A program made the position numbers and the translations under genes. A DNA stretch of 54,789 nucleotides, taken from positions 1-54,789 of the forward strand of contig JBDREN010000209.1 of NCBI GenBank assembly GCA_043819795.1. Reading direction: 5' to 3'. The notes under the pieces are model-generated. The model had not been told where the DNA came from. It saw only the letters and a list, made by a program, of their open reading frames with translations, and searched no databases. Positions 5,542 through 54,202 of this stretch are shown here, in pieces (the stretch's first letter is position 1; each line of letters opens with the position of its first letter). This DNA is from Elusimicrobiota bacterium. Lineage in GTDB: Bacteria > Elusimicrobiota > Elusimicrobia > UBA1565.

Positions 5542-6387
5542 TCAGCGGCTCCTCAGCCTCGGGTCGAAGAGGTTCTCGACCGCGCTCCCGAAGCAGATGA
5601 GGCTGTACTGGAACAGCACGATCGCCAGCATGGGGGAGAGAAGGTACGGCAGCGCGTTGGGCACGAAGATGGAGCCCGTGGAGAAAGCCGCCAGATTCAG
5701 CATCATCCCCCAGTTCGTCAGGGAGAGCGGCACCAGGCCCAGGAGCATGATCCCCACGCTGGCGGTGATCGCCCCCTTGGCGATATGGATGAAATTGATG
5801 GTGATGAAGGGCACGATATTGGGCAGGAGCTCCTTGAACATGATGTGGGATGTGGACATGCCCAGGCAGCGGCAGACCTCGATGAACTCCGCCTGCTTGA
5901 GGGAGAGGACCTGCGCCCGGATGGCCCTGGCCAGGGGCGGCCAGCTCCAGATGGCCAGGACCAGGCCGAACGAGACGGGGTCGCGAATCTTCAGCAAGGA
6001 CGCGAAGATGGCCATGATGGGGAACGTGGGCACGGTGAGGAACACCTCGACCACCCTCATTAGGAGGAAATCGGTCTTGCCGCCGATCAGCCCGGCGGAG
6101 ATTCCGACGAGCACCGCGAGAAGGACGCCGAACACGGCCGTTGAGAAGGCTATGAGCATCACGTCCCTGGAGCCGTGCACGATCTGCTGGAAGGTGTCCC
6201 TGCCCGAGTAGTCCGTTCCCAGCCAGTGCTCCAGGGAGGGAAGCTGGAACCTCCCCTCGTAGTTCGTGGTGGTGTCGAGCTCCACGATATGGGGACCGGC
6301 CGCGGCCATCAGGAAGAACCCGCAGAGGATGATGAAGCCCGCGAGCGCCTGCTTGTTTCCCCTCAGTATGCCCCAGAAACGCTTCAT
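5542..6387 (-). CDS. oppC: ABC transporter permease (OppC-like)
   Basis: HWLGTDYSGRD, ARAIRAQVLSLKQAEFIE, WGMML; starts MKRFWG overlapping the oppB stop. Confidence 0.9.
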   Translation of the reverse strand: MKRFWGILRGNKQALAGFIILCGFFLMAAAGPHIVELDTTTNYEGRFQLPSLEHWLGTDYSGRDTFQQIVHGSRDVMLIAFSTAVFGVLLAVLVGISAGLIGGKTDFLLMRVVEVFLTVPTFPIMAIFASLLKIRDPVSFGLVLAIWSWPPLARAIRAQVLSLKQAEFIEVCRCLGMSTSHIMFKELLPNIVPFITINFIHIAKGAITASVGIMLLGLVPLSLTNWGMMLNLAAFSTGSIFVPNALPYLLSPMLAIVLFQYSLICFGSAVENLFDPRLRSR

Positions 6388-7376
6388 TTCCCGGCCTTGA
6401 TCCGCGGATCGAGCAGTGAGTACAGGAACTCCGACATCAGGACGGCGAAGATCATGGCGAACGTCGTCATCAGGAAGATGCCCTGGATCAGCATGAAATC
6501 CCGGTTCCCGATCGCCTGCCCCACGTAGAAGCCTATCCCCGGATAGTTGAAGATCCCCTCGATGAACATAGAGCCGCCCAGCATGGCGCCGAACGAGATG
6601 GCGAGCCCGGTGACCAAGGGGAGCATGGCGTTGCGCCCCACGTAGTGCAGGGTGATGGTCCTCTCCTTGAGGCCCTTGGCCTTGGCCACCGTGACGTAGT
6701 CCTCGTTCAGAGTGCTGGTCGCGGCGGCCCTGGCCTGGAGCGCCCAGGCGCCCATGCACTGGAGGGTGAAGGCGCTCACCGGCAGGACCGCGTGATAGAG
6801 CGCGTCTATGAGGAACGCCGGGTTGAACCCGGGCGCCGTGTCCGAGCTATAGGCCCCGACGATCGGGAACCAGCGCAGCTTCACCGAGAAAACGACCAGG
6901 AGCAGCAGGGCGATCAGGAAATCCGGGATGGCCTGGGTGAACGTGGCGTAGAGGGTGATGGCATGGTCGAGAGCCGAGCCTCTCTTGCGCGCCGCGATCA
7001 TCCCCAGCAGGGTCCCGGCCGTGAAGCTGCCAAGCAGGGCCAGGCTGCAGACGAACAGGGTCCAGGGCAGGGATTTGAGGATGATCCTGCCGACCGGCAT
7101 TTTGTAGACGATGGACACGCCCATGTTGCCCTGCGCGAGCCCTGCCAGGTACTTCACAAACTGCATGAGCACGGGGGCGTCCGGGTCGTAGTTGAGCTGG
7201 GCCTTGGCCAGCTCATAGGCCTCGTTGTAGGGGACCCCCTGGGCCTGCTGCAGCTCCAGGGCGATCATGTGCACGATGTCGCCCGGCATCATGCGCAGAA
7301 GGAAGAAGGTGATGACCAGGGCCACGCATGCCGTGAAGACCGCGACCAGGATCTTCCGCCGGGTGGGGCCGCTCAT
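6384..7376 (-). CDS. oppB: ABC transporter permease (OppB-like)
   Basis: MPGD, EDYVTVAKAKGL, EGIFNYPGIG, LDPRI. Confidence 0.9.
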   Translation of the reverse strand: MSGPTRRKILVAVFTACVALVITFFLLRMMPGDIVHMIALELQQAQGVPYNEAYELAKAQLNYDPDAPVLMQFVKYLAGLAQGNMGVSIVYKMPVGRIILKSLPWTLFVCSLALLGSFTAGTLLGMIAARKRGSALDHAITLYATFTQAIPDFLIALLLLVVFSVKLRWFPIVGAYSSDTAPGFNPAFLIDALYHAVLPVSAFTLQCMGAWALQARAAATSTLNEDYVTVAKAKGLKERTITLHYVGRNAMLPLVTGLAISFGAMLGGSMFIEGIFNYPGIGFYVGQAIGNRDFMLIQGIFLMTTFAMIFAVLMSEFLYSLLDPRIKAGK

Positions 7377-29745: not shown

Positions 29746-30390
29746 ATGACTTCCTACCGGTTGTCCGTGATTGTCGCGGGAATCCTCATGTTGGCCGCGT
29801 CAGTGGCCGAGGCGCAATCGAGAATCCGGTACCGAGGGCAGCGAGGCGGCGGCCTCGCCGCGGGCCGGAGCGGCCGCGCCTACAGCCCCGGCGGAGGCTC
29901 GCACTCCATGCGGATCCGCAGGGCGGCCGTATCCCGGCCAAGCGCCATGGCTTCGCGGCGCGGGGCATCCTCTTTCGGAGCGTCTCAATCTTCGGGGCAG
30001 CGGGGCCCCGGAATCACGCCCATTCCCTCTGCGCCCTCGCCGGCGCACAACATCCGCAGGACGATGGCCTACCGCTGGCAGGCGGCCCCCGAGGCCAAGC
30101 CCGGAAAGCCGATGCCGTTCATCCGCGACGAGTTCTTGGAGCGCCTGGCGCGGGAGCGGCGCGTCCAGGAGGGGATACGCGAGCTTCCGTACACCCGCAC
30201 GACGATCCGGGAAGACGACGACATCCCGGCGCGCGGCGATGGCGCGGTCTTTATCGGTGGAGGCTCCTATCTGCCGGTCGCGATCGGGAGCACCGGGACG
30301 CACAACCGGGACCAGGGGGGGCGCCCTGCGGACCCCGGAAGCCCCCCCGGCTCATCCTCCGGGAAAGGCAAGGGAAAAGACAAGAAGTAG
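29746..30390 (+). CDS. Secreted low-complexity hypothetical protein
   Basis: Purine-rich RBS, signal peptide ending VAEA|Q, Gly/Ser/Arg-rich body. Confidence 0.6.
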   Translation: MTSYRLSVIVAGILMLAASVAEAQSRIRYRGQRGGGLAAGRSGRAYSPGGGSHSMRIRRAAVSRPSAMASRRGASSFGASQSSGQRGPGITPIPSAPSPAHNIRRTMAYRWQAAPEAKPGKPMPFIRDEFLERLARERRVQEGIRELPYTRTTIREDDDIPARGDGAVFIGGGSYLPVAIGSTGTHNRDQGGRPADPGSPPGSSSGKGKGKDKK

Positions 30391-30415
30391 TCCGGGCTCC
30401 AACCCCGAGAATTCC

Positions 30416-30444
30416 TTGCTAGAACTGGGTTTCTCTGTTATACT
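30416..30444 (+). promoter_or_regulatory. Sigma70-type promoter for the ncRNA/tmRNA locus
   Basis: TTGCTA-17 nt-TATACT with extended -10 TG; predicted start near 30451. Confidence 0.75.
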
Positions 30445-30450
30445 GCGAAT

Positions 30451-30830
30451 GGAAGTTCACCCGCGCCTGTCGTATCCGTCGTCGATGAGTGGTCAGCGCC
30501 GGTTGCGCGGAGCGCCAACCGGTCGCTTGCACCGCTGTGTTATCAAGGGATTGCCCGCCGGTGGGGGGCGGGGCTCCCTGATAGAGTAGAGGTGTAAGCG
30601 CCGCAAGCGCAAAGCGCTTGCGATGCTGGCATGGGTGCGACCTATTAGTGGGCGGCATGGCCCGCCCACCTTAGTAGGGGTGACCCGCAAGGCCCACTCA
30701 GGCGATGTGGGTCTTGCGGGCTCGAGGGGGCGGCAGCCCCCAGGGGGAGCACCCGCGCGAGCACGGTACCTTACTCGCGCGGGCCTTCAGGCCCCGAGCG
30801 CAGCGAGGGGTGCGACAAGCGGGGGTGAAT
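30451..30830 (+). ncRNA. Large structured ncRNA, resembling a shortened OLE RNA (5' domain)
   Basis: No credible ORF; at least six hairpins enclosed by a 23-nt closing stem (21 pairs). Motifs CAAGGGAUUG..UCCCUGAU, GGCAUGGGUGCGAC, AGUAGGGG..ACC, AC.CAGGCGAUGU occur in the order I recall from OLE RNA (recollection, not searched). Confidence 0.6.
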
Positions 30831-30913
30831 AGGTTCGACAAGCGTCGTATTACCTGGAAGCCGCAGGCCCTGGTTGGTCGGAGCCAGGATAAAATCCGGC
30901 CAAAACAACAAAA

Positions 30914-30946
30914 GCCAACTCACCGTTGGCCTGGGCCACTGCCTAA
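30914..30946 (+). other. tmRNA proteolysis tag reading frame (A)ANSPLAWATA*
   Basis: A-rich run then GCC AAC TCA CCG TTG GCC TGG GCC ACT GCC TAA after the pk1 region. Confidence 0.85.
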
Positions 30947-31163
30947 CCCGCAGTAAGTCCACGTCGGTCCCCCGACGCCTGCTAGGGGGGTGCCGGCGTC
31001 AAGAAGCAGGCTGGGAGCCGCGTCGCGCGCTTCGTCGACGCGGGTCCGAGACCATAACGGAGCTGGTCCCGGGATACTTGTCCGGCGGTTTTCCCGGGAC
31101 GAGACCAACGCCGGGCTAAGCCTGTAGTGGCCCCAGGGGGCGGCGTTTGGACGCGGGTGCGAT

Positions 31164-31832
31164 CAAGATGGTCGCCTCCCGGAGCGATCCGGGATGATAA
31201 AACCTGGCTTAATCAGGGGAACCTAAATCCACCGCTGATCGTACATAGCGGGGGACATGGCAATCCTGAGGGGCGCAAGCCCTGCAGAGACTGTTCCCGG
31301 GCAGGGTCCGGGGACGATGGAAAACGGAATGGCTGAGACGGATAAGGCCTATCTGGCCGGGCTGATCGACGGTGAGGGCACGATCACGTTGACGCGCCAT
31401 CATCGCAATCAGTTCCCTCAACCGAGAGTGTCGATCTCCAACAACAGTCTTGAGTTGTTGGAGTGGGTGAGGGAGCGGCTGGGCTGCGGAAATATCATCC
31501 GCCGTTCGCCACGCAAGGAGCACCATGGCAAGTCCTATGTGTGGCAGGTCCAGCTGGCTGGTTCAGCGCTGAAGGTGCTGCGAGAGATCAGGCCTTATCT
31601 CGTGCTGAAGCGTCGGCATGCCGACCTGCTTCTGGAAGACTATAAGGCGTGTACGCCTCGCAACGGGAAGTATTCCCCGTCCATGCTGGCGGCGAAGCGC
31701 GGGCTGGTCGGCCAGATTAGGCGGCTGAATCAGACGGGTCGGTCACGTTTTCCATAATACGTCAGGCTCCGTCGGCTTCGGCCGGCGGGTGAAGAGATAG
31801 TCCACGCCGCTCGGAAACGAGCGGGATGCGTG
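31164..31832 (+). mobile_element. Group I intron (669 nt, IA-like with P7.1/P7.2) in the tmRNA T-loop
   Basis: 5' exon ends in U and pairs GCGAU/GUCGC with a U-G wobble (P1). P AATCAGGGGAA, Q GGCAATCCTGAG, R GCAGAGACTG, S AAGAGATAGTCC; P3 CCTGGC/GTCAGG; P8 UUCG and P9 GAAA hairpins; terminal G at 31832. Confidence 0.93.
31317..31757 (+). CDS. Intron-encoded single-motif LAGLIDADG homing endonuclease (146 aa)
   Basis: DKAYLAGLIDGEGTI, VSISNN..ELLEWV...LGCG.I, L.EIRPYLVLKRRHA; alternative start at 31329. Confidence 0.93.
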   Translation: MENGMAETDKAYLAGLIDGEGTITLTRHHRNQFPQPRVSISNNSLELLEWVRERLGCGNIIRRSPRKEHHGKSYVWQVQLAGSALKVLREIRPYLVLKRRHADLLLEDYKACTPRNGKYSPSMLAAKRGLVGQIRRLNQTGRSRFP

Positions 31833-31888
31833 TCCCGCCACCTCCACCATTTTTTGTGGGCGCGGTTCGCGTCCACTAGGGGTCTTCT

Positions 31889-33214
31889 ATGCTGGGCAGG
31901 CGCAACGTCGCGCTCCTGGGCTCCAACTTCATCTTCGCGGCGGTCTGCGCCGCCCTGTTCTTCTATCCGGGCTGGGAGCTCGTCCTCTACCCGGCCTGCG
32001 GCATCATCTTCCTCTGGAACGACTTCCGGCGCGAGGACGAGATCCACGTCATCTTCGTCTTCCTGGCGACCGCGGCCGCGCTGCTGCTCATGACGCGGGC
32101 CACCGATCCGGGCGTGCGGGTGGGGTTGGCCATCGAGGTCGTGGGGGTCTGGGCGCTGAGCTTCGGGCTCGGCCTGCACCGCGGCCAGCTGGCATCCGAG
32201 GAAGGGCGCGTCCTGAGCAAGGTGGACGAGATCGAAGCCCAGACGCGCGACAGCCAGCGCGAGCTGCGCTTCTACAACACCTACGAGGGCACGGCCGTGG
32301 CCCAGATCCGCTTGCGCCGGGACCTGACGCAGGCCGCCAAGAGCCTGGGCACGACGATGGACCCCCACGAGGTGCAGGTGCGCCTGATGAAGATTCTGGA
32401 GGGGCGCTACAAGGGAAGCCGGGTGAAGATCCTGCCCGGCATGCCGCAGGACCCGATCGTCAACTGGGCCGCCAAGACGCACGCGCCCGTGCTCGTCAAG
32501 GACATGGATCTCGAGATGCGGTTCGGGCCTCGCTCGACGGGGCACGGGTTCCGGTCGGCCCTGGTCGTCCCCCTGAGCGTCATGAAGAAGCCGTACGGCT
32601 TCGTGGCCCTCAAGGCCGAGAAGACGGGCGCCTACACCAACGACGATCTGCGGACCGTGGACCTTTTCGCGACGCTCGCCTCGCTTACGCTCGAGAACAT
32701 TCACCTTTACGAGGAGGTCCACAGCCTCGCGACCCACGACGGCTTGACGCAGCTCTTCACTCAGCGTGCGTTCCGGATGAGACTGAAGGAGGAGATGCTC
32801 CGGGCCGGGCGCAGCCAGATGCCGATGGGTCTGATCATGGGCGACATCGACTTCTTCAAGCGCTACAACGACACCTACGGCCACCAGGCGGGCGACGAGC
32901 TCCTGCGCGCGGTGGCGCGCATACTCGTCAACCAGACCAGGCCTGTCGACTGCGTGGCGCGCTACGGAGGGGAGGAGTTCGCCGTCATCCTCCCGAACAC
33001 GGTCCACGGGCGGGCGGTGGACCTGGCCAACCGCATGCGCGACGCGGTGGCTTCGGAGCCGTTCGTGTTCCAGGGACAGCGGACGCGGGTCACGATGAGC
33101 TTCGGGGTGTCCTCGTTCCCGAGCGACGCCACCTCCCTGAGCCAGCTCGTCCGCGTGGCCGACGAGAGGCTCTACAACTCGAAGTCCCAGGGGCGCGACC
33201 AGGTGACGGGGTGA
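31889..33214 (+). CDS. Membrane-anchored GAF-GGDEF diguanylate cyclase
   Basis: N-terminal TMs, GAF-like region, DGLT, DIDFFKRYNDTYGHQAGD, RPVD I-site, RYGGEEF. Confidence 0.93.
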   Translation: MLGRRNVALLGSNFIFAAVCAALFFYPGWELVLYPACGIIFLWNDFRREDEIHVIFVFLATAAALLLMTRATDPGVRVGLAIEVVGVWALSFGLGLHRGQLASEEGRVLSKVDEIEAQTRDSQRELRFYNTYEGTAVAQIRLRRDLTQAAKSLGTTMDPHEVQVRLMKILEGRYKGSRVKILPGMPQDPIVNWAAKTHAPVLVKDMDLEMRFGPRSTGHGFRSALVVPLSVMKKPYGFVALKAEKTGAYTNDDLRTVDLFATLASLTLENIHLYEEVHSLATHDGLTQLFTQRAFRMRLKEEMLRAGRSQMPMGLIMGDIDFFKRYNDTYGHQAGDELLRAVARILVNQTRPVDCVARYGGEEFAVILPNTVHGRAVDLANRMRDAVASEPFVFQGQRTRVTMSFGVSSFPSDATSLSQLVRVADERLYNSKSQGRDQVTG

Positions 33215-33411
33215 TGATTCCGCTTCGGGGGGTTCAGCGAGCGTTCGACCGAAGGGAGAGCAGCGAGCGACGACGAAACGGGGGGCGAGCAGCCCCCCTT
33301 GTGGAGCGCCGAGCGGAGCGCGCACCTTCCGGAGCGAGGCTTGTCCGACGCTCCTCCTGGGCGATTATCAATCGCCCGAGCGAAGGAGGGCGCGACCAGG
33401 TAACCGGCTGA
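33191..33411 (+). repeat. 24-bp imperfect direct repeat of the gene 3' end flanking a palindromic REP-like insert
   Basis: GGGCGCGACCAGGTGACGGGGTGA (33191-33214) vs GGGCGCGACCAGGTAACCGGCTGA (33388-33411); internal hairpins GGGGGGC..GCCCCCC and GGGCGATT..AATCGCCC. Confidence 0.75.
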
Positions 33412-53821: not shown

Positions 53822-54202
53822 TTGGCGGAACATCGCAGGGGGAAGTTCGGCCCGGAAGCGCGCCTCGGCGGCTCCGACATGGAGCGCGTTTTCTCTGAGG
53901 GGAGGAAATATCTGCGGCCGGACCTTGTATTCTGGCATCGCCCGCGTGCCGAGGCGGAGGACGCCGGAAGGGCCGGTCCCCGCCTGGGCATCTCCGTCAG
54001 CCGGAGGCTTGGAACAGCGGTCCGCCGCAACCGGATCAAACGTCTGTTGCGCGAATCGTTCCGCCTCAACAGGCACCGGATCAGGCCGGACTCGGACATC
54101 GTCGTCTATCCGAGGATAGGTTGCCGCTGGACCGGCTTCGCCGATGCCGAAACGGCCCTGCTGGATTTATGCCGCAGGGCGGGCGTTCTCAGGGAGGATT
54201 AA
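53822..54202 (+). CDS. rnpA: Ribonuclease P protein component
   Basis: [29 protein letters not shown]; synteny. Confidence 0.93.

What the first reader, a model, noticed from the sequence alone, without database searches (positions are those of the whole stretch)
30455..30830. Closing stem of the upstream RNA sequesters the tmRNA 5' acceptor strand
Seen: GTTCACCCGCGCCTGTCGTATCC (30455-30477) pairs with GGGTGCGACAAGCGGGGGTGAAT (30808-30830) at 21 of 23 positions, 3 of them G-U. The last 10 nt are tmRNA nt 1-10, including the whole acceptor strand and the expected RNase P site. CGACAAGCG also occurs twice (30813-30821 and 30836-30844). Inference: two mutually exclusive folds. The leader could hold the 5' strand until the distant 3' exon is made and spliced, or could gate tmRNA maturation.
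Basis: partly seen in the sequence, partly recalled or inferred. Interest (0 to 1): 0.75.

Follow-up and report, generated by a model that had tools for sequence, protein, structure and literature searches.

The report
Conserved leader hairpin locking pre-tmRNA
In this bacterium and some relatives, the precursor of the ribosome-rescue RNA (tmRNA) starts with a hairpin that covers the first bases of the mature RNA and probably has to be cut before the RNA can fold; the hairpin does not depend on the gene's intron, and its large loop is only repeated DNA.

Summary
The 23-bp stem is real (21 pairs, 3 G-U; 0 of 2000 shuffles) and conserved. 14 of 69 tmRNA loci examined in this order (probably Elusimicrobiota) have the same leader hairpin in the same register, with compensatory changes; 13 of 14 keep a G-G mismatch opposite tmRNA nt 2.

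(1) There is no 'upstream RNA': 30492-30820 is a dispersed repeat filling a loop that is a few bases long in some relatives. (2) The intron is not the trigger: 11 of 14 stems occur without it, and the lock persists after in-silico splicing. (3) The 9-nt direct repeat is unique to this genome.

Best reading (0.5): a pre-tmRNA lock opened by a cut near the mature 5' end, most likely RNase III; the mismatch lets the cut piece fall off. No cut was observed, and the RNase III register test was not significant (p=0.35). 46 of 69 loci have almost no leader, so the stem is dispensable.

In passing: the repeat's end sits 3-4 nt from +1 of several tRNA genes. The scan had not noted this stem; it had noted a MITE-like repeat in another Elusimicrobiota genome.

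The parts
30416..30444 (+). sigma70-type promoter with extended -10; start site inferred near 30451-30453
   Evidence: Only promoter-like site in 30300-32000; a TGnTAYAnT-type box was called upstream of tmRNA in 64 of 69 order loci
30455..30477 (+). 5' arm of the leader hairpin; G30463 faces tmRNA G2
30492..30620 (+). dispersed repeat, module A (in the hairpin loop)
   Evidence: 35 BLAST hits of 30 nt or more in own genome, self-hit included
30633..30820 (+). dispersed repeat, module B; its right end (GCGAC plus 4 nt) is the inner half of the 3' arm and abuts tmRNA +1
   Evidence: 33 BLAST hits; ends listed
30808..30830 (+). 3' arm of the leader hairpin (leader -13..-1 plus tmRNA nt 1-10)
30821..31163 (+). 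tmRNA 5' exon
   Evidence: RF00023 88.3 bits at 30828-31183; ends set by comparison with relatives
30914..30946 (+). putative tag reading frame ANSPLAWATA*
   Evidence: translation; resume codon inferred from the Rfam alignment
31164..31832 (+). group I intron in the T loop
   Evidence: RF00028 E 0.0033, below gathering score; -1 U, P1 and terminal G
31257..31757 (+). LAGLIDADG homing endonuclease ORF inside the intron (true start probably further in)
   Evidence: PF14528 E 1.3e-7, above cut-off
31833..31849 (+). tmRNA 3' exon: T-stem 3' strand, acceptor 3' strand, ACCA

Best explanation
The feature is the 5' leader hairpin of pre-tmRNA, not a separate RNA. Shown by sequence comparison: a roughly 23-bp stem spans the mature 5' end in a fixed register, with a G-G mismatch at nt 2 and a loop of any size. 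Predicted: it zips up once nt 10 is made and outcompetes the acceptor stem with or without the intron. Even if the acceptor forms, the leader next to the RNase P site stays paired. Inferred: a double-strand nuclease, most likely RNase III, cuts within about 2 nt of +1. The freed 5' piece then binds only weakly because of the mismatch and is displaced by the 3' acceptor strand. RNase P removes any leftover base. The result is a precursor resembling the near-leaderless transcript that most relatives make directly. The repeat in the loop is a passenger; the hairpin may be what lets hundreds of bases of repeat sit between promoter and gene (inference).
For: Same register in 14 loci: paired 14 of 14 at +1, +3, +4, +5, -1, -2 and -5; G-G at +2 in 13 of 14. 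Position -1 is G-C 7, A-U 5, C-G 2. The 5' arm follows changes in the tmRNA itself, at +6 in G006 and +9 in G012, G014, G006. 15 or more Watson-Crick pairs of 20 in 11 of 14 loci, against 0 of 55 other order loci and 0 of 27 loci outside the order. Locked fold favoured by 3.2-14.2 kcal/mol in 10 of 11 intron-less loci, and -1..-10 stays mostly paired when the acceptor is forced. After a cut at -1|+1 or -2|-1 the 5' piece binds by 6.7-8.0 kcal/mol (Kd about 2-20 uM), against 11.1-12.4 (about 2-15 nM) if nt 2 were paired. The stem length matches the 22-bp RNase III footprint (PMC3867540, passages). RNase III, RNase P RNA and protein, and SmpB are encoded. Stable leader structure slows RNase P (PMC10731613, passages).
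Against: No cleavage was observed, and no RNA contig covers the leader. The best RNase III register (-2|-1) avoids G-C antideterminant pairs at 42 of 56 positions, but column permutation gives p=0.35. The register giving the exact mature end is the worst (5 of 56) by E. coli rules (rules from PMC1540722, passages). The stem is absent from 55 of 69 loci, and RNase III is present regardless (91 of 101 genomes). G005, G018 and G020 do not beat their shuffles, and G018 prefers the mature fold. The 14 loci are related, not independent. Energies ignore pseudoknots, tertiary contacts and SmpB.
Confidence: 0.5

Rival explanations
1. Transient holder without a double-strand cut: the 3' acceptor strand, helped by tertiary contacts, SmpB and RNase P, displaces the weakened outer half; or a single-strand cut in the loop plus 3' exonucleases removes the 5' arm.
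For: The mismatch halves the lock, from 13.8 to 7.3 kcal/mol. G018 already favours the mature fold. The stem forms as soon as nt 10 is made.
Against: The inner stem at -1..-10 stays paired when the acceptor is forced. Stem-bearing tmRNAs are no more prone to mispair nt 1-7 than others (median 0.4 vs 1.1 kcal/mol, p=0.79), so there is no sign they need a holder.
Confidence: 0.22
2. Neutral by-product: an old inverted duplication or repeat insertion kept paired by template switching, with no function.
For: Absent from 55 of 69 loci; patchy on the tree, at least 2 and probably 4 changes; the inner 3' arm equals the repeat end.
Against: Template switching should erase the G-G mismatch, yet 13 of 14 keep it. 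All 6 f3 leaders, G003 and G006 have the stem without a repeat-filled loop. Only the tmRNA copy had a matching left arm among 15 repeat ends examined.
Confidence: 0.12
3. Relay: the 5' arm hands the acceptor strand over by switching to the T-stem 5' strand, whose C2 would explain the conserved G.
For: The arm pairs with the T arm at 6-7 of 7 positions in all 8 f1 loci, and the conserved G faces C in 13 of 14.
Against: In all 6 f3 loci the T stem changed and the arm did not follow (C-C clash). Forcing this pairing costs 1.9-20.3 kcal/mol.
Confidence: 0.08
4. One reading: the stem holds the acceptor strand until the intron is spliced.
For: 3 of 4 intron-bearing loci have the stem; the 5' arm is complementary to 9 nt in the intron at 31785-31793.
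Against: 11 of 14 stems lack an intron, and G029 has the intron without the stem. G012 (intron) and G006 (none) are tree neighbours with the same stem. Splicing does not weaken the lock.
Confidence: 0.04
5. A separate structured non-coding RNA or riboswitch upstream of tmRNA.
For: Very stable fold, z -8.99.
Against: No Rfam match. The interior is a dispersed repeat. Leaders run from 43 to 376 nt with unrelated loops.
Confidence: 0.03

Closest known systems
RNase III processing stems, e.g. rRNA leader-trailer helices (PMC11404451, passages)
   Same: A long duplex in a stable-RNA precursor, of RNase III size, next to the mature end.
   Different: The leader pairs with its own 3' part and with the first 10 mature bases, not with a trailer. 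It blocks rather than encloses the mature fold.
Standard pre-tmRNA processed by RNase P (PMC10731613, passages)
   Same: tRNA-like ends, with RNase P present. Inhibition of RNase P by leader structure is known.
   Different: Here the leader takes the whole acceptor 5' strand, so no RNase P substrate is predicted until it is removed.
Intron-form tmRNA genes (PMC11915505, passages)
   Same: Group I intron in the T loop with a LAGLIDADG gene; 883 intron forms are known, 36 with a homing endonuclease gene.
   Different: The main text has 0 occurrences of 'leader', 'upstream' or 'Elusimicrob'; supplements were not read.
Bacterial MITE/REP-like repeats, e.g. Correia elements cut by RNase III at their inverted ends (PMC10969869, passages)
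   Same: Multi-copy, non-coding, hairpin-rich repeat in a transcript leader.
   Different: No terminal inverted partner in other copies; the stem exists without the repeat; the repeat end is registered to tRNA +1.

Membership tests
RNase III processing stem | Duplex of about 22 bp | tested here: met
   21 of 23 paired here, 17-21 of 23 across 14 loci
RNase III processing stem | Enzyme encoded | tested here: met
   PF14622 hit above cut-off in G000
RNase III processing stem | A register avoiding G-C pairs at proximal-box positions 2 and 4 | tested here: inconclusive
   Best register 42 of 56, permutation p=0.35; exact-end register 5 of 56
RNase III processing stem | Staggered cleavage with 2-nt 3' overhang | not testable with these tools
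   Only assembled contigs of relatives were available; none covers the leader
rRNA-type leader-trailer helix | Leader pairs with the trailer and encloses the mature RNA | tested here: not met
   The partner is leader -13..-1 plus nt 1-10
Riboswitch or independent ncRNA | Conserved single-copy core across relatives | tested here: not met
   Loop variable and repeated elsewhere in the genome; no Rfam match
MITE (loop repeat) | Multi-copy and non-coding | tested here: met
   35 and 33 hits on 39 contigs; flanks looked intergenic by inspection only
MITE (loop repeat) | Terminal inverted repeats | tested here: not met
   An inverted partner of the right end was found for 1 of 15 ends, the tmRNA copy
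MITE (loop repeat) | Target-site duplication and a partner transposase | not tested
   One 33-bp duplication seen by eye at C138; no systematic test
tmRNA T-loop group I intron | -1 U pairing with G in P1, terminal G, T loop restored | tested here: met
   rules from PMC11915505
tmRNA T-loop group I intron | Catalytic core matches RF00028 | tested here: inconclusive
   22.9 bits against gathering 50, E 0.0033, with the ORF as a long insert
tmRNA T-loop group I intron | Self-splicing | not testable with these tools
   No contig covers the intron

The most novel reading that the evidence does not exclude
This order has an RNase III-first route to the tmRNA 5' end. In addition, the released leader's 3' arm seeded a repeat family that spreads through RNA and lands exactly at the +1 of tRNA genes, like a bacterial SINE. 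The arm exists without a repeat-filled loop in G003 and G006, and the repeat end lies 3-4 nt from +1 in five genomes.
Probability: 0.12. Interest if true: 0.8.

Novelty: new variant of a known kind. Interest (0 to 1): 0.55.

Why it matters
tmRNA 5' maturation is normally a one-step RNase P cut of an open leader. A conserved hairpin that buries both the acceptor strand and the RNase P site implies an extra, possibly controllable, step. It can be tested in vitro with short RNAs, because f3 leaders are only 43-110 nt. The repeat registered to tRNA +1 may be a separate lead on a mobile element with an unusual target. The effect is confined to part of one uncultured order and is dispensable in most relatives, which limits its reach.

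Tried and rejected
Mean pairing probability of nt 1-7 against shuffled leaders did not discriminate, because a G-rich end pairs with anything. It was replaced by a fixed-register count.

The RNase III register test was not significant.

The idea that stem-bearing tmRNAs misfold more was not supported.

The T-arm relay fails in f3.

RNA runs held only small shares of the stretch. Four were laid as contigs and cover only the tmRNA body; leader and intron have no cover, which proves nothing. Three X1 contigs of relatives start at 30821, which is only a weak hint for the mature end.

Only 2 of 80 were tmRNA loci with a full stem, so other phyla are not excluded.

No 16S rRNA is assembled, so there was no pre-rRNA stem to compare. 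No RNase J above cut-off was found in a 90% complete genome.

PMC6212792 returned only a short text with a figure legend. Likeness to CGTC-type REPs was not established, since the consensus sequences are in figures not held (PMC3733652).

The first fold used wrong coordinates and was ignored. Intron-mode ARAGORN output was mostly false calls and partly cut.

Full report
Observation. The pairing is as described: 21 of 23 positions, three G-U, mismatches G30463-G30822 and C30467-A30818. No shuffle of 2000 reached 21. It is in both the MFE and centroid folds. Downstream lies a tmRNA gene (RF00023) that starts at 30821 and is split in the T loop by a group I intron, 31164-31832, carrying a LAGLIDADG ORF. 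That gene form is known: 883 intron forms, 36 with a homing endonuclease gene (PMC11915505, passages). One promoter-like site, 30416-30444, was found in 30300-32000, so 30455-30820 is most simply the tmRNA's own leader.

The 'upstream RNA' is repeat DNA. The leader interior has 55 matches in the own genome at E up to 10. It consists of module A (35 hits of 30 nt or more) and module B (33 hits), together on 39 contigs. Rfam finds nothing in it. The inner half of the 3' arm is the right end of module B. The first CGACAAGCG is that end plus four bases; the second is the common tmRNA UCGAC motif plus P2. The identity is 9 of 9 here and 3-7 of 9 in the other 13 stem-bearing loci, so I treat it as coincidence.

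Relatives. 95 of 101 order genomes have a tmRNA match. I took 70 loci: the 30 best and 40 chosen to cover genera. 69 could be parsed; L046 could not. They include all 15 f1 and all 6 f3 genomes with a match, and 48 f2. 46 of 69 have 14 nt or fewer between the -10 box and +1, 5 had no box called, 4 have a different 64-68 nt leader whose hairpin lies upstream of the gene, and 14 have the junction-spanning stem: 8 of 15 f1, 6 of 6 f3, 0 of 48 f2. A blind scan of 450 nt upstream gives 15 or more Watson-Crick pairs of 20 in 11 of these 14, in 0 of the other 55, and in 0 of 27 loci outside the order (3 more not parsed).

The register is fixed. Positions +1, +3, +4, +5, -1, -2 and -5 are paired in 14 of 14; +2 is G-G in 13 of 14; -4 is a purine mismatch in 6. 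Position -1 is G-C 7, A-U 5, C-G 2, and the 5' arm follows changes in the tmRNA itself at +6 and +9. Eleven of 14 beat their shuffles (at most 4 of 300); G005, G018 and G020 do not. Leaders run from 43 to 376 nt. On a tmRNA tree of 39 of the loci the trait needs 4 changes, at least 2 forced by well-supported branches: either old and lost repeatedly, or gained more than once. These loci are kin, not independent tests. The only 2 of 80 fetched hits of a genome-wide pattern scan that are tmRNA loci with a full stem are titled Elusimicrobia bacterium (L162, L169). They are my basis for the phylum and are not added to the counts.

The intron is not the switch. Stem without intron occurs 11 times, both 3, intron without stem 1 (G029), neither 54. 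The locked fold beats the acceptor fold by 7.3 kcal/mol spliced and 5.7 unspliced in G000, and by 3.2-14.2 in 10 of 11 intron-less loci; G018 prefers the acceptor. Without the leader the acceptor costs 0-2.3 kcal/mol in all but G020 (6.1). When the acceptor is forced, -1..-10 stays mostly paired.

Mechanism. In stepwise MFE folds the stem completes at nt 10 and persists to the end of exon 1. RNase P reads an open leader and is slowed by nearby structure (PMC10731613, passages), so I infer the hairpin must be cut first. RNase III fits by size (22-bp footprint; PMC3867540, passages) and is encoded, as are RNase P RNA, RNase P protein and SmpB. After a cut at -1|+1 or -2|-1 the 5' piece binds with Kd of about 2-20 uM, but about 2-15 nM if nt 2 were paired, which gives the mismatch a purpose. 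Against this: by E. coli rules (PMC1540722, passages) the exact-end register is the worst (5 of 56), and the best one, -2|-1 (42 of 56), is not significant under column permutation (p=0.35). RNase III is present in 91 of 101 genomes whether or not the stem is. The nuclease is therefore an inference. Displacement without such a cut (0.22), a neutral by-product (0.12) and a T-arm relay (0.08; fits f1, fails in f3) remain. Stem-bearing tmRNAs show no extra tendency to mispair nt 1-7. RNA data do not decide: only contigs of relatives, none over leader or intron; three X1 contigs start at 30821.

Side finding. By my hand count over there are 25 terminal repeat ends in G000. Six lie exactly 4 nt before the +1 of tmRNA, tRNA-Pro, tRNA-Val, tRNA-Trp, and 5' halves of tRNA-Ser and tRNA-Leu; one abuts the RNase P RNA 3' end on the other strand. 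ARAGORN tRNAs in the genome. An exact pattern gave 19 matches in five relatives. By inspection 8 are true repeat ends, of which 6 lie 3-4 nt before a tRNA, 1 is the G012 tmRNA leader and 1 is elsewhere; the other 11 look like chance. Some of these tRNA sites (Trp, Val) are probably inherited rather than separate events. Only the tmRNA copy has an inverted partner (1 of 15).

Novelty. Five searches (listings only) returned no paper whose title or abstract start describes a tmRNA leader that sequesters the acceptor strand. The library lacks most subscription journals, and I read no supplements; those of PMC11915505 may hold this gene. The nearest kinds are RNase III processing stems (PMC11404451, passages; PMC11780869, passages and section 24; PMC8708148, passages) and repeat-borne RNase III sites (PMC10969869, passages). 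It works like a processing stem but fails the leader-trailer definition. Two earlier scan notes concern a MITE-like repeat in another Elusimicrobiota genome and a differently built inverted repeat around another tmRNA; neither describes this stem, and I checked neither. Verdict: real, conserved in part of one order, probably functional, independent of splicing, mechanism untested. Interest 0.55.

Noticed in passing
G000 C61, C95, C180, C235, C140; L112, L115, L116, L118, L122, L128: The right end of the module B repeat lies 3-4 nt before +1 of tRNA genes (Pro, Val, Trp, Thr, Leu, Arg, and 5' halves of Ser and Leu) in five genomes.
   Followed up: partly
G000 C120:51364-51369: A repeat end abuts the 3' end of the RNase P RNA gene on the opposite strand.
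   Followed up: no
G000 C138 near 6266-6455: A repeat copy is flanked by a 33-bp direct duplication of a gene's 3' end.
   Followed up: no
G000 C235 near 493 and C140 near 9351: 5' halves of tRNA-Ser and tRNA-Leu break off at the anticodon loop, as island attachment remnants would.
   Followed up: no
G000 C20:4770-4845: The tRNA-Ala(GGC) leader has a 10-nt stretch complementary across the tRNA 5' junction, seen by eye.
   Followed up: no
L041-L044, L050: Five f2 genomes have a different leader of about 65 nt with a strong hairpin ending just before tmRNA +1.
   Followed up: partly
window 31164-31832; L011, L012, L021: Closely similar T-loop introns begin in G012, G014 and G029, across two families, suggesting transfer or repeated loss.
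   Followed up: no
window 31785-31793: Nine intron bases are perfectly complementary to the leader 5' arm 30456-30464.
   Followed up: no
window 33215-33400: Another hairpin-rich intergenic stretch, between two GGDEF-like genes, resembles sequence next to a repeat copy on C190 (by eye).
   Followed up: no
G000 C179, C6, C95: Three full-length reverse transcriptase domains are encoded; any link to the repeat is untested.
   Followed up: no
window 53876-54181: The RNase P protein gene lies in this window.
   Followed up: no
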